A stretch of 64,000 nt of DNA from the human T2T-CHM13v2.0 reference genome, Homo sapiens: the NCBI GenBank assembly GCA_009914755.4, contig CP068257.2, positions 8,736,001-8,800,000 of the forward strand, in the 5' to 3' direction. A program made the translations under genes and the position numbers. This document shows, piece by piece, positions 60,473 through 64,000 of the stretch. The notes under the pieces are model-generated. The model searched no databases. It was not told the DNA's origin and worked only from the letters and a program-made list of their open reading frames with translations. Positions within the stretch are counted from its first letter, which is position 1. The number at the start of each line of letters is the position of its first letter.

Positions 60473-61325
60473 GCTGATCAATAGTCACCGGGGGTGCCTC
60501 CGGGCTCCTTGGGGTGCACGGCTGGGGGTTCCCTCGCATGGCCTGCCGGGGCCCTCTGTCCCCCCAAGTGCAGACCGGTGACGTCCGCCCTCCTCTGCCG
60601 CCATGCCCGCCCCTTCTCCCCCCCCCCCACAGGCCCTGTGTGGTCAGGCATTGGGTGGCATGGGGAAGGGGGGCTCCCGGCTGTAAGGAAGAGAGAGAGG
60701 GCGGCGCTGCCACCCGCGAAAACAGAGAGGGAAGAGAGCTGGCTGGGGCCGAGTTCCCGTGGCCACCACCGCAGTCTGGGTTCCTCCCTCAGGGGCTCCC
60801 TCGTGCCTCACGCAGCTCATGGTGCAGGGTTCGTTGGCCCTGGTGGGGTGGAAGGTCCCGTGCCATCGTCGTCACGTATCGTGGGTAGTGTGGGTTTGTT
60901 GTGGGGGGAGGAAGGCAAGTAGGAAGGGTCCGCCGGAGAGAGGGTGGGGGAGCATGTCCCGGTCGCCGCGGTTTGCCGCCACCCCTGGTGGTTGCCCGGC
61001 AACCAGCCCACCGCTACTGCAGCGCCCCTCCTCCCCAACATCCCTCCAAGGCACAGTCCTCCTCGTCCGCGCGCCCCCCGCCTGCCCGGCGCGCATCGCT
61101 GTCGTGTCCGGGGCCGGAAGCCCGCCACGCGGCCCGTCTGGCAGCACTCGTGGCCGTGGTCCTGGGGTTTGCGTGCCCTTGGCGGTGACTCGCTGGATGC
61201 TGCAGTGTCGTCCGCCATCGTGAGCCCGCCTCCGGCTCTCAGCCGCCCAGTGCCTGGGGCCCGGTCTGTAGCTTCCACGTCTGGCCAGGGCGGCGCCGCT
61301 GTGTCCTCGGACCAGTCCCCCACCT
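60473..61325 (+). other. ITS2-like GC-rich spacer, 3'-truncated (~0.85 kb versus ~1.15 kb canonical); no 28S follows
   Basis: GC-rich, CpG-rich sequence immediately after the 5.8S copy. The GC-rich character ends abruptly at about 61325 (...gaccagtcccccacctccatttagcatgtagg) and AT-rich unrelated sequence follows. The 28S 5' end motif (cgcgacctcagatcagacgtggcgacccgctgaatttaagcatattag) is absent from the window. Confidence 0.65.
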
Positions 61326-63199
61326 CCATTTAGCATGTAGGCAATCCCATGTAACTTAGCAAAGCTAGCAAGTCCCTAAACTCGGCGCAGCCACTATAGG
61401 GGTGGCCTCCCAGTAGCATTGTTAACACCAATTGTAATTGGTAGGCAATCACTTAGTTTCACATTTCATTACCCGAGTTATACAAATGTGTAAAAAAAAT
61501 ACAGTTTTAATAAAGGGAGTAAAGGATAATATGAGTAATATTCACAATCTCTAGTTGGAAGAGGTAGTGTTTTCTCAGAAATGATGCATTCCTGGAGCAA
61601 GGTCATTTTATGTTTGGTTTGTTAAATATCTATTTCCATTTTGACAAACCACTGGAAAATCCCAGCTTCACAAGGACTCTCCATGAGAATGATCAAACAA
61701 AAGAACACCCATAACACAAAATCAAAACAAGGGTGGTCCAGGCGTCACATTAAAGACTCATTACCAAGTTTTCTTAGAAGAGATAAAGAACACAAAGTTA
61801 CTTTTATGTGATGGAAAACAGAGAGAAAGAGTAAATGGAACAATAAATGTTGGGCAACAACAGTGAAAACCAAGCTGTGGAAAAAAATGAATGGAAATGT
61901 TTTGTTTGGTATTGATTTCCTATCCTGATATCAGAAAGTATGGGAAAGAACAAAGCACATTTTTTTGAGACAAATAGAACATAAAACAAATGAATGTTAA
62001 AGACTATTTTACAGTGCTAACAAAACTATTTGTGACTTGTTTTTTCCATTTAAAAATACGATTTTGTACAATTACATTTATATAAATTATTGAAATAAAA
62101 TTGTAAAGATGGAGAACAGGCTATGGGGTTGCCAAGGGGAAGGGGTGGAGGAAAACGTGTCAGAGTGTCAGCAAAGATCACAAGTTGGAGCCGGGTGGTG
62201 ATGCTACAGTTCTGTATCTTGACTGTGGAAGTGGTAGTTACAGAGATCTACACCACATAAAAATGCACAGAACACATGCACACGCATACACACATACAAA
62301 AATGAATGCATACAAAACGGTTGCAATCTGAGTAAGCTTTCTGAATTGTACCTATGTCAGTTTCCAGGTTTTGATAATGCTCTATAGCTATGTGAGATGT
62401 CACCACTGGAATTAGTGAGTAGTACCTAAGACATCCCTGTACCTTTTGCAACTTCCTGTGAATCTATAATTATTTCAAAAGAAACTTAAAAGTCATAGCA
62501 GACTTTCACTTCAAAGAGGAAAAAAACTGAAGATTAATGAAATTGTTGAAGAACATCAAATACTCAATAGTCTGTATGAGAGCTGTATTCTGTCCACTCA
62601 CAGCACAGCTGTCATTTAGCCTTTTCCTGACGTGCCCTGGAAGACTTGAGCTCCTCTTGCATTGCCAAGGCCAATAGTGTTTATTTGTTACTAACTTTGT
62701 ACTGAACCCCCCAAAAATGAAAAGTGATTGAATAATCATTTATAATAGCAACTAGTAATTTTACTTATAAAGAGACAATAGTGGTAACGAATTTAAATAT
62801 TTATGGTAAAGAATAGATCTTTGTTAGACAGTACTGGCAAAATTTAGAAAGAAAAAATAAGGAATCAGAAACATAAGTAGTTCAGTTTTGTGAAAAAATT
62901 CTGGATCTGAGATGCAAAAGAACAGAGATTATATTGCGTTTCTACTCCAAACCTGAAGAGTCACCTTAAGTGTGTTGTGTTTCTGTGCCAAAGCTGCTGA
63001 ATCACCTTAGGCAATGCATGCCCTTTCCCTGAACCTGTTTTCTTTTCTACAAAATAAAGTGAGCTAGATCATCTCTGAGGTCTCCCAAATATTCACATTT
63101 TTGGCTCTACATGAACTTCAGTTGAATTCCTAATTTCAGTGTGGATAATACATGTGTGCTGCACCACAAGCAGTGTGTCTAAATGCTCATGTTGGTCCT

Positions 63200-64000
63200 A
63201 AAAACTAATTATGAGCAGTTTGGAAATTCCGTTGTTGTAGAATCTGCAAAGGGATATTTGTGAGTGCTTTGAGGCCATGGTGAAAAAGGAAATACCTTCA
63301 CATAAAAACTATAAAGAAGGTTTCTGAGAAACTGCTCTGTGATGTGTGCATTCATCTCACTGAGTTAAACGTTTCATTCCTTTGATCAGTCTGGAAACTC
63401 TGTTCTTGTACAATCTGCAAAATGGTATTTGTGAGTGCTTTGAGGCCTATGGTGAAAAAGGAGATATCTTCACATAAAAACTAGACAGACGCTTTCTGAG
63501 AAACTACTTTGTGACATGTGCATTCATCTCACAGAGTTAAACCATTCTTTTGATTGAAATGCTTGGAAATGGTGTTTGTGTAGAATCTGCAGAGGGATAT
63601 TTGTGAGAGCTTTGAGGCCTATGGTGAAAAAGGAAATATCTTCACATAAAAATTAGAAAGAAGGTTTATGAGAATCTGCTTTGTGATGTGTGCATTCATC
63701 TCACAGAGGTAAATGTTTATTTTCATTGAGCAAATGAGAAACTCTTTTCTTGTAGAATCTGCAAAGGGATATTTGTGAGCAGTTTGAGGCCTATGGTGAA
63801 AAAGGAAATATCATCACATAAAAACTTGACAGAAGTTTCTGAGAAACTTCCTGGTTATGTATGCATTCATCTCACAGAGTTAAACTATTCTTTTGATTGA
63901 GCAGTTTGGAAACAGTATTTTTGTAGAATCGACAAAGGGATATTTGTGAGTGCTTGGAGGCCAATGGTGAAAAAGGAAATATCTTCACATAAAAACTAGA
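63200..64000. repeat. Alpha satellite, ~4.6 divergent ~171-bp monomers (monomeric, not a higher-order repeat)
   Basis: Recurring tgtagaatctgcaaagggatatttgtgagtgctttgaggcc(t)atggtgaaaaaggaaatatcttcacataaaaactagacagaag...ttctgagaaactgctttgtgatgtgtgcattcatctcacagagttaaac with periodicity of about 171 bp (monomer starts near 63241, 63411, 63583, 63755 and 63928). Monomers differ substantially from one another. Confidence 0.9.

What the first reader, a model, noticed from the sequence alone, without database searches (positions are those of the whole stretch)
61325..64000. rDNA-like block breaks inside ITS2 and lies ~1.9 kb from monomeric alpha satellite: a pericentromeric setting
GC-rich ITS2-like sequence stops abruptly at about 61325 with no 28S. 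After ~1.9 kb of AT-rich unassigned sequence the window ends in at least 4.6 alpha-satellite monomers that are mutually divergent (monomeric alpha, typical of pericentromeric flanks rather than the active higher-order-repeat core). The transcription sense of the pseudo-unit points toward the satellite. On acrocentric chromosomes the arrays are transcribed toward the centromere, so this geometry is compatible with an old array-proximal remnant or a pericentromeric segmental duplication of one.
Basis: partly seen in the sequence, partly recalled or inferred. Interest (0 to 1): 0.6.

Follow-up and report, generated by a model that had tools for sequence, protein, structure and literature searches.

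The report
Truncated rDNA pseudogene beside old alpha satellite
This is a decayed, cut-off copy of a human ribosomal RNA gene unit joined to unrelated DNA and then to old, non-centromere-core alpha satellite; the patchwork has been copied several times in the genome, is a kind already described near human centromeres, and is ordinary.

Summary
A degraded 18S-ITS1-5.8S-ITS2 series ends at window 61327, which is ITS2 nt 944 of 1175. There is no 28S or ITS2 tail anywhere in the window. GC falls from 0.70 to 0.36 at the break. After a 1,884-bp non-repetitive spacer (61328-63211), alpha satellite starts mid-monomer at 63212 and runs to the window end (4.6 monomers). A 99.6%-identical public contig extends it to 8.5 monomers without higher-order periodicity.

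All monomers are type A, mostly 172 bp, and closest to the published monomeric M1 consensus (84-90%).

Both junctions recur base-for-base in independent human-derived contigs that are 91-99.6% identical to the window. Four clean copies share 103 substitutions and 16 deletions against canonical ITS2. The truncation therefore happened once, in an already decaying unit, and the composite was later duplicated. Other copies show the spacer with different left (X) and right (Y) flanks, so it is a separate duplicon and not array-flanking DNA.

The break differs from the present-day proximal junction of rDNA arrays. 18S non-CpG divergence (3.7%) suggests 17-38 Myr of decay.

The class is already published (Robicheau 2017; Floutsakou 2013; T2T ape work). 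Chromosomal placement could not be done with these tools. Interest is low.

The parts
57392..59260 (+). 18S rRNA pseudogene. It lies outside the finding's coordinates but belongs to the same pseudo-unit.
   Evidence: Rfam SSU_rRNA_eukarya gives 1346 bits over the full model. Identity to canonical 18S (L025) is 92.8%. Of CpG sites, 25% have changed, against 3.7% of non-CpG sites. CpG observed/expected is 0.64 versus 1.04 in the canonical gene.
59261..60317 (+). ITS1-derived sequence
   Evidence: It is colinear with canonical ITS1 (1057 versus 1078 nt) at 75.5% identity.
60318..60469 (+). 5.8S rRNA pseudogene
   Evidence: Rfam 5_8S_rRNA gives 117.6 bits, against 143.3 for canonical copies. Identity to canonical is 92.1%.
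60470..61327 (+). ITS2-derived sequence, nt 1 to 944 of 1175. The last ~231 nt of ITS2, the 28S and the 3'ETS are absent.
   Evidence: MAFFT and local alignment to canonical ITS2 from L023 give 80.5% identity, and homology ends at 61327. GC is 0.70. No 28S or ITS2-tail match exists in the window.
61327..61328 (.). Junction 1: ITS2 joined to unrelated DNA. The sequence reads ...CCCCCACCTCC|ATTTAGCATG, with one base (C) of microhomology.
   Evidence: The identical junction occurs in L001-L011, L013, L014, L015, L018, L020 and L028, with copy-specific substitutions on both sides. L012 and L028 show the same spacer start preceded by different DNA, X.
61328..63211 (+). Spacer S: 1,884 bp of AT-rich, non-tandem, non-rDNA sequence that forms a separate duplicon.
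   Evidence: GC is 0.358. It has no similarity to the rest of the window, no tandem repeat except a short ACACACAT run, and no Pfam hit in translated frames. Paralogous copies are 93-99.6% identical. Alternative flanks exist: X on the left (L012, L028) and Y on the right (L017, L020).
63211..63212 (.). Junction 2: spacer joined to alpha satellite in mid-monomer. The sequence reads ...CTAATTA|TGAGCAGTTTGG.
   Evidence: The identical junction occurs in L011, L012, L013, L015, L016, L018 and L019. L014 leaves the satellite after 16 bp. L017 and L020 continue into non-satellite Y at the same point. The satellite alignment starts at consensus position 65.
63212..64000 (+). Alpha satellite: 4.6 monomers, cut by the window end. 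All are type A, mostly 172 bp and M1-like, with no higher-order repeat.
   Evidence: TRF reports period 172 and score 1074. Identity to published gM1 is 84-90%, and gM1 is the best match for every monomer. No CENP-B box is present. An extra T (ATATTTG-T-GAG) is present in all monomers. L016 (99.6% identical) continues the array to the equivalent of 64673, and all monomer pairs are 80-88% identical.

Best explanation
This is a non-functional genomic fossil made of three unrelated pieces joined end to end and later copied as a block.

**The pieces**
1. A fragment of one rDNA unit: intergenic spacer, 5'ETS, 18S, ITS1, 5.8S and the first 944 nt of ITS2. It escaped concerted evolution roughly 17-38 million years ago and has decayed since, mainly by CpG loss.
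2. A 1.9-kb piece of ordinary AT-rich DNA taken from another locus.
3. A block of old, monomeric, type-A alpha satellite entered in mid-monomer.

**How it formed**
- Both joins look like non-homologous end joins. One has 1 bp of microhomology, there is no poly-A and there are no target-site duplications.
- Each join happened once. The composite was then spread by segmental duplication, giving copies 91-99.6% identical. Later rearrangement gave some copies other flanks.
- This is the duplicon-mosaic architecture typical of human pericentromeric regions.

**Shown versus inferred**
- Shown: the anatomy, the exact break points, the shared junctions and the shared decay.
- Inferred: the end-joining mechanism, the dates and the pericentromeric location.
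For: **Break position.** The break is at ITS2 nt 944 of 1175, with no 28S anywhere.

**Decay.**
- 18S is 92.8% identical to canonical, with 25% of CpG sites and 3.7% of non-CpG sites changed, and CpG observed/expected of 0.64.
- This matches the statement that known 18S/ETS segmental duplicates reach at most 93.2% identity (PMC3847771).

**Single origin, then copying.**
- The same two junctions recur to the base in independent contigs from different samples, with copy-specific substitutions.
- Four clean copies share 103 substitutions and 16 deletions against canonical ITS2, while 68 sites vary among them.

**The spacer is a separate duplicon.**
- X|S occurs in L012 and L028, with 88 of 88 nt of X identical.
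- S|Y occurs in L017 and L020, with Y 99.5% identical.

**Satellite class.**
- All monomers best match gM1 and all are type A.
- The period is 172 bp.
- There is no higher-order repeat over 8.5 monomers.
- By Shepelev 2009 Table 1, 172-bp monomeric type A corresponds to the V1, H3 or H4 layers, dated 18-58 Myr.

**Literature on the class.**
- Four degraded rDNA units lie beside the HSA20 centromere and one beside the HSA2 vestigial centromere. One HSA20 copy keeps about 8 kb of the 45S region plus about 22 kb of intergenic spacer (PMC5381670).
- 45S pseudogenes are reported in the HSA16 and HSA20 pericentromeres and near the Y centromere (PMC12767296).
Against: - The chromosomal position was not determined, so 'pericentromeric' rests on the satellite, the duplication pattern and the literature.
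- The paralog evidence comes from short-read contigs of human DNA in metagenomes. At least one of these (L017) is a chimera, and others show patchy divergence. Long-range linkage is therefore unreliable, for example which copy carries both rDNA and alpha. The number of true genomic copies is unknown.
- The canonical reference is assumed to be human. It is 100% identical to rDNA in a human-associated sample, but its species was not independently verified.
- Dates depend on assumed mutation rates.
- A higher-order repeat longer than 8 monomers is not strictly excluded.
Confidence: 0.8

Rival explanations
1. This is an in-situ fossil of an ancestral nucleolar organiser. On this view the ITS2|spacer join is the proximal (centromere-side) boundary of an rDNA array that once sat at this locus. 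The spacer and alpha satellite would be its original centromere-ward flank.
For: - The polarity fits. The 5' part of the unit is kept, the 3' part is lost, and the satellite lies downstream, as at present-day proximal junctions, where end units keep ETS and 18S.
- Recent work reads pericentromeric 45S pseudogenes on HSA16 and HSA20 as relics of acrocentric ancestry (PMC12767296).
- The estimated decay age (17-38 Myr) overlaps the age of 172-bp alpha layers.
Against: - The spacer exists elsewhere with a non-rDNA left flank and with a non-satellite right flank.
- The alpha is entered in mid-monomer at a separate junction.
- One 17.7-kb copy has the ITS2 junction but no alpha within 9 kb.
- No 28S of a preceding unit is present anywhere in the 61 kb upstream. 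The block is therefore at most one partial unit.
- The break position and identity differ from modern proximal-junction units.
Confidence: 0.12
2. The satellite is the outer edge of a higher-order-repeat (active or recently active) centromeric array, and not old monomeric alpha.
For: - Adjacent monomers inside a higher-order repeat are also 60-85% alike, so 4.6 (or 8.5) divergent monomers do not formally exclude a long repeat unit.
- The window ends inside the array.
Against: - No monomer pair exceeds 88% identity over 8.5 monomers.
- Every monomer is type A and best matches the monomeric M1 consensus. None best matches a J, D or W class.
- There is no CENP-B box.
- The 172-bp length is that of older layers.
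- In paralogs the block is short, or flips orientation within about 1.3 kb.
- The array was assembled from short reads, which homogeneous higher-order arrays do not allow.
Confidence: 0.05
3. The block is a processed (retrotransposed) pseudogene of pre-rRNA, or the abrupt break is an assembly misjoin in the source sequence.
For: Abrupt composition steps are what misjoins and retro-insertions can look like.
Against: - The junction is reproduced in more than 15 independent contigs from different samples and assemblers.
- There is no poly-A at the 3' end of the rDNA part.
- The unit continues upstream through 5'ETS into (TC)n-rich, intergenic-spacer-like DNA. That DNA is not part of the 45S precursor, which is the same argument Robicheau et al. 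make.
Confidence: 0.02

Closest known systems
Degraded near-full-length rDNA units beside the HSA20 centromere and the HSA2 vestigial centromere (Robicheau et al. 2017, PMC5381670). Also the '18S/ETS segmental duplicates' of Floutsakou et al. 2013 and the pericentromeric 45S pseudogenes of PMC12767296.
   Same: - It is a highly decayed unit containing both intergenic-spacer-like and 45S-derived DNA.
- About 8 kb of the 13-kb transcribed region is retained. Here that is 5'ETS to ITS2 nt 944, about 7.7 kb.
- 18S identity of 92.8% sits just under the reported maximum of 93.2%.
- It is associated with centromeric satellite.
- Several copies exist.
   Different: - Those papers do not report the exact break point (ITS2 nt 944), the spacer duplicon or the mid-monomer alpha junction in the passages I read.
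- I could not show that this window is one of the published copies, because no human genome was searchable.
Proximal junction (PJ) of present-day human rDNA arrays (Sakai 1995; Floutsakou 2013)
   Same: - A terminal unit keeps its 5' part and loses its 3' part on the centromere side.
- The flanking DNA is almost wholly segmentally duplicated and shared with pericentromeres.
   Different: - PJ end units keep 2.0-5.4 kb of the 45S region and are about 98.8% identical to functional rDNA.
- Here about 7.7 kb is kept, identity is 92.8% in 18S and about 80% in ITS2, and the break lies in ITS2.
Old or ancient monomeric alpha-satellite layers flanking human centromeres (Shepelev et al. 2009: V1/SF6, H3, H4; SF4 M1 in the broad sense)
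   Same: - The monomers are 172 bp, purely type A and in a monomeric arrangement with 12-20% divergence between them.
- They are closest to the M1 consensus.
- There is no CENP-B box.
   Different: - The specific layer (V1, H3 or H4) could not be assigned, because no consensus for those classes was available.
- In this family the block is embedded in a duplicon mosaic. In some copies it is only about 5-8 monomers long.

Membership tests
Alpha satellite | Head-to-tail tandem repeat of about 171 bp | tested here: met
   TRF reports period 172, 4.6 copies and score 1074. Extension through L016 gives 8.5 monomers.
Alpha satellite | Sequence similarity to published alpha-satellite consensus monomers | tested here: met
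   Identity to gM1 of Catacchio et al. 2015 Table 1 is 84-90%, and gM1 is the best of 11 class consensuses for all 8 monomers.
Monomeric (non-HOR) alpha satellite | No higher-order periodicity: no monomer pair near-identical at a fixed multiple of the period | tested here: met
   All pairs are 80-88% identical over 8.5 monomers. A repeat unit longer than 8 monomers is not excluded.
Old or ancient 172-bp type-A layers (V1/SF6, H3, H4; Shepelev 2009) | Monomer length of 172 bp rather than 171 bp, and pure type A (no CENP-B box) | tested here: met
   Monomer lengths are 172, 172, 171, 172, 173, 166 and 172, and all carry the same extra T. All have the A-type site and none has the B-type site. The criterion comes from PMC2729386 Table 1 and Text S1.
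Old or ancient 172-bp type-A layers (V1/SF6, H3, H4; Shepelev 2009) | Clustering with a specific layer consensus (V1, H3 or H4) | not testable with these tools
HumAS-HMMER or the Dfam ALR subfamilies would be needed.
rDNA-derived pseudogene (45S pseudo-unit) | Colinear 18S-ITS1-5.8S-ITS2 homologous to rDNA but decayed beyond functional variation | tested here: met
   Rfam gives hits below canonical scores. Identities to canonical are 92.8% (18S), 75.5% (ITS1), 92.1% (5.8S) and 80.5% (ITS2), and CpG observed/expected is 0.64.
rDNA-derived pseudogene (45S pseudo-unit) | DNA-level origin, not retrotransposition: non-transcribed spacer attached and no poly-A | tested here: inconclusive
   Decayed 5'ETS lies directly upstream of the 18S, and (TC)n-rich blocks lie at 40.6-48.5 kb. 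There is no poly-A at the break. No canonical intergenic-spacer reference was available, so spacer homology could not be proved.
Present-day proximal-junction (PJ) terminal rDNA unit | Break position: end unit retains 2.0-5.4 kb of the 45S region | tested here: not met
   The break here is at ITS2 nt 944, so about 7.7 kb is retained, against Robicheau Table 1.
Present-day proximal-junction (PJ) terminal rDNA unit | About 98.8% identity of ETS/18S to functional rDNA | tested here: not met
   18S identity is 92.8%, against 98.8% in PMC3847771.
Present-day proximal-junction (PJ) terminal rDNA unit | Flanked by the published PJ contig sequence | not testable with these tools
   No PJ sequence was available for comparison.
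Pericentromeric segmental duplication | Paralogous copies longer than 1 kb at 90% identity or more, sharing duplicon boundaries | tested here: met
   Copies of 1.2-7.1 kb are 91-99.6% identical. The junctions are identical and the decay is shared. Caveat: the evidence comes from short-read contigs, and one of them is a proven chimera.
Pericentromeric segmental duplication | Location within a few Mb of a centromere or relic centromere | not testable with these tools
   No human reference genome was among the searchable collections.

The most novel reading that the evidence does not exclude
The ITS2|spacer join could be the preserved centromere-side boundary of an ancestral catarrhine nucleolar organiser that has since been lost from this chromosome. 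The family of copies would then give a datable sequence marker for when and where an rDNA array was extinguished, and for how its end unit was scattered among pericentromeres.
Probability: 0.1. Interest if true: 0.4.

Novelty: already known. Interest (0 to 1): 0.12.

Why it matters
It matters little beyond annotation. Decayed rDNA units next to centromeres, and old monomeric alpha satellite in pericentromeric duplication mosaics, are both documented.

The useful by-products are practical:
- **Exact break coordinates** for this pseudo-unit family: ITS2 nt 944, the spacer, and a mid-monomer alpha join. These can serve as diagnostic junction markers when sorting paralogs in T2T and pangenome assemblies.
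- **A contamination warning.** This family, and canonical human rDNA, turn up as contaminant contigs in gut metagenomes and in bacterial genome assemblies, some of them chimeric. This can mislead gene calling and rRNA-based analyses.

Tried and rejected
**Leads that gave nothing**
1. Pfam scan of translated frames: the three + frames of the spacer and the three - frames of the alternative right flank Y. There was no hit at E <= 0.01. My impressions of an old L1 3' end at about 62100-62500 and a Tigger-like transposase motif in Y therefore remain untested recollections.
2. Similarity between the spacer and the rest of the window: none.
3. Exact-motif scan of bacterial and archaeal genome contigs for the spacer: no hit. 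Viral contigs for the 5.8S motif: no hit.
4. The 3'ETS and first ~1 kb after 28S from canonical L023, compared with the window: no hit. No canonical intergenic-spacer reference could be obtained, so the upstream start of the pseudo-unit was not mapped.
5. mir-663 literature as a route to the locus: uninformative. I did not use my recollection of the MIR663A and MIR663B sequences as evidence.
6. Published consensus sequences for V1 and H1-H4 monomers: not available in the text held.

**Idea considered and rejected**
7. L017 first looked like a 'young' copy, 91% identical to canonical ITS2. That would have favoured repeated shedding from a live array end. Profiling showed it to be an assembly chimera: 100% canonical rDNA for about 1,050 nt, then the pseudo-copy. 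I rejected the idea.

**Evidence deliberately set aside**
8. Long-range combinations of flanks within contigs, for example X-S-alpha in L012. These were not used as evidence, because divergence profiles are patchy.
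Full report
**1. What is at the coordinates**

Rfam finds a full-length but low-scoring 18S (57392-59260, 1346 bits) and a low-scoring 5.8S (60318-60469, 118 bits), both on the + strand. It finds no large-subunit rRNA anywhere in the 64 kb. The GC-rich sequence after the 5.8S stops abruptly. GC is 0.70 for 60470-61327, 0.358 for 61328-63211 and 0.361 for 63212-64000. Tandem Repeats Finder reports one array in the region, at 63212-64000, with period 172, 4.6 copies, 82% matches and score 1074. 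No other alpha-like sequence occurs in the window.

**2. Mapping the break on real rDNA**

No human genome is searchable with these tools. I therefore recovered canonical rDNA as contaminant contigs in bacterial assemblies, using a 45-nt 5.8S motif.
- L023 carries 5.8S, a 1175-nt ITS2 and a 5067-nt 28S.
- L025 carries an 1869-nt 18S, a 1078-nt ITS1 and 5.8S.
- The two are 100% identical where they overlap.
- They are also 100% identical to the rDNA part of a chimeric contig from a human-associated sample. I therefore take them to be human, which is an inference.

Against this reference the window is 92.8% identical in 18S, 92.1% in 5.8S, 75.5% in ITS1 and 80.5% in ITS2. ITS2 homology ends at window 61327, which is ITS2 nt 944 of 1175. 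The remaining ~231 nt of ITS2 and the whole 28S have no match in the window or in 20 related contigs, even with 7-nt words. The 5'ETS directly upstream of the 18S is present but heavily decayed. The retained transcribed part is about 7.7 kb, taking the 5'ETS length from general knowledge.

**3. Decay and age**

In 18S, 25% of CpG positions have changed (57 of 75 changes are C>T or G>A), against 3.7% of non-CpG positions. CpG observed/expected is 0.64, versus 1.04 in the canonical gene. Functional 18S is essentially invariant, so the non-CpG distance (Jukes-Cantor 0.038) lies on the pseudogene lineage. At 1.0-2.2e-9 substitutions per site per year it corresponds to roughly 17-38 Myr. This is an inference and depends on the assumed rate. 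The 92.8% figure fits Floutsakou et al.'s remark that known 18S/ETS segmental duplicates reach at most 93.2% identity to functional rDNA (PMC3847771).

**4. The satellite**

- **Start of the array.** It aligns to alpha-satellite consensus on the + strand, beginning in mid-monomer at consensus position 65.
- **Check on my consensus.** The consensus I first used came from memory, so I checked it against published sequences. It is 98.2% identical to the gM1 consensus printed in Catacchio et al. 2015 (PMC4585704).
- **Extension beyond the window.** Contig L016 is 99.6% identical to window 62801-64000 and continues 679 bp further, which extends the array to 8.5 monomers.
- **No higher-order repeat.** All monomer pairs are 80-88% identical.
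- **Class.** Each of the 8 monomers best matches gM1 (84-90%) and none best matches a J, D or W class consensus. All have the A-type site and none has a CENP-B box.
- **Length.** Monomers are mostly 172 bp, because of an extra T (ATATTTG-T-GAG) present in every monomer.

By Shepelev et al. 2009 (PMC2729386, Table 1 and Text S1), monomeric type-A alpha of 172 bp belongs to the V1/SF6, H3 or H4 layers, dated 18-58 Myr. The 171-bp SF4/SF5 and higher-order families are excluded. I could not assign the layer more finely.

Two cautions apply. A higher-order repeat longer than 8 monomers is still not formally excluded.

**5. The junctions are shared by paralogs**

Open reading frames spanning the break exist verbatim in public assemblies. 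I fetched the contigs that carry them, scanned metagenome contigs for an exact 36-mer of the spacer, and retrieved one 17.7-kb JGI contig through a homology search.
- **Junction 1** (...CCCCCACCTCC|ATTTAG..., with one C of microhomology) is identical in L001-L011, L013, L014, L015, L018, L020 and L028. Copy-specific substitutions lie on both sides.
- **Junction 2** (...CTAATTA|TGAGCAGTTTGG...) is identical in L011-L013, L015, L016, L018 and L019.
- **Shared decay.** In the last 700 bp of the ITS2 part, four clean copies (window, L013, L015, L018) share 103 substitutions and 16 deletions relative to canonical ITS2. Only 68 sites vary among them.

The unit was therefore already truncated, joined and partly decayed before it was duplicated.

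**6. The spacer is its own duplicon**

- **Alternative left flank.** In L012 the spacer start is preceded by AT-rich unique DNA and an Alu tail (X), not by ITS2. L028 contains the same X|S join, with 88 of 88 nt of X identical.
- **Alternative right flank.** In L017 and L020 the spacer ends at the same base (63211) but continues into non-satellite DNA (Y). The Y sequences of the two contigs are 99.5% identical.
- **Other variants.** L014 leaves the satellite after 16 bp. L019 has about 5 monomers followed by poly-T and other DNA. L015 flips alpha orientation after about 7.6 monomers.
- **A long copy without alpha.** L028 has the ITS2 junction. After 0.72 kb of spacer it turns into an inverted second spacer copy at a 9-bp microhomology, and it has no alpha in the following 9 kb.

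The spacer has no similarity to the rest of the window and gave no Pfam hit in translation.

**7. Reliability of the contigs**

Divergence profiles along the contigs are patchy. L017 is a proven chimera: adapter, then about 1,050 nt identical to canonical rDNA, then the pseudo-copy. I therefore use only local junction sequences as evidence, since each k-mer must exist in reads. I draw no conclusion from which flanks are combined in a single contig, nor about copy number.

**8. Interpretation**

The best-supported account is a duplicon mosaic. A partial rDNA unit, a piece of unrelated DNA and a block of old monomeric alpha satellite were joined by two separate non-homologous joins. The composite was then propagated by segmental duplication, with later rearrangements.

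This is the architecture described for human pericentromeres and for the proximal flank of rDNA arrays, which is 92.4% segmentally duplicated with duplicates mostly pericentromeric (PMC3847771). Robicheau et al. 2017 describe four degraded units beside the HSA20 centromere and one beside the HSA2 vestigial centromere. One HSA20 copy keeps about 8 kb of the transcribed region plus about 22 kb of spacer. The ~8 kb figure agrees with a break at ITS2 nt 944. A recent T2T ape study reports 45S pseudogenes in the HSA16 and HSA20 pericentromeres and near the human Y centromere (PMC12767296).

**9. The 'array-proximal remnant' idea**

The polarity argument is sound as far as it goes, because present-day proximal end units keep ETS and 18S. 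Several results count against the idea:
- Those end units keep only 2.0-5.4 kb of the 45S region and are about 98.8% identical to functional rDNA.
- The spacer has independent flanks elsewhere.
- The alpha join is a separate event.
- No 28S from a preceding unit lies anywhere upstream in the window.

I give the in-situ fossil reading about 0.1.

**10. Verdict**

The feature is a member of an already described class and has no indication of function. Interest is low.

Noticed in passing
window 56519-56608 (+): Rfam mir-663 precursor hit (97.9 bits, gathering score 75) inside the decayed 5'ETS, about 870 nt upstream of the 18S pseudogene. The mir-663 family hairpin therefore appears to be rDNA-5'ETS-derived sequence here. 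From memory, which I did not test, MIR663A (20p11.1) and MIR663B (2q21) lie in the same regions where degraded rDNA units are reported.
   Followed up: partly
window 40656-48489: Several long, imperfect (TC)n / (CTCTCTGT)n blocks (281 to about 1,100 bp) with strong C/T strand skew. This is consistent with rDNA intergenic-spacer-derived sequence upstream of the pseudo-unit. No canonical spacer reference was available to confirm it.
   Followed up: partly
L017 1-1050 and L020 3' end: Public metagenome contigs carry sequencing-adapter remnants. L017 is a chimera of canonical human rDNA and the pseudo-copy, joined inside ITS2, which shows that assemblers switch between rDNA and its pseudogenes.
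   Followed up: yes
L021, L023, L025, L027 (also L022, L024, L026): Eukaryotic rDNA contigs sit inside bacterial genome assemblies, including RefSeq records (Shinella sedimenti NZ_JAKVIN010000029.1, Atopomonas sediminilitoris NZ_JAKUMM010000021.1, Arthrobacter sp. NZ_PJIM01000009.1). Four look human. L022, L024 and L026 have different ITS2 lengths (534 or 1415 nt) and so come from other eukaryotes. This is contamination in public genomes.
   Followed up: partly
L028 7050-7640: In a 17.7-kb paralog the spacer is joined to an inverted second copy of itself at a 9-bp microhomology (TTCCATTTA). The two arms are 94.6% identical, and the inverted arm runs out into flank X. This is either a real inverted-duplication junction or an amplification chimera.
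   Followed up: partly
L015 about 4174 (oriented as window +); L019 about 2532: In other paralogs the alpha block is short. L015 flips to the opposite orientation after about 7.6 monomers. L019 ends after about 5 monomers at a poly-T followed by non-satellite DNA. In this duplicon family the alpha may be a small island and not the edge of a large array.
   Followed up: partly
L001-L010 (contig ends at window 61586-61703): Ten independent gut-metagenome contigs of this locus all stop 260-380 bp past the ITS2 break, about where L011 switches from 0% to about 5% divergence. This suggests an assembly-graph branch between paralogs, or removal of host reads that map to the reference genome.
   Followed up: no
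window 2589-2792 and 670-836: A GC-rich 34-bp tandem repeat (6.1 copies) and a 68-bp repeat (2.5 copies, 91% matches) lie near the start of the window. I did not examine them.
   Followed up: no
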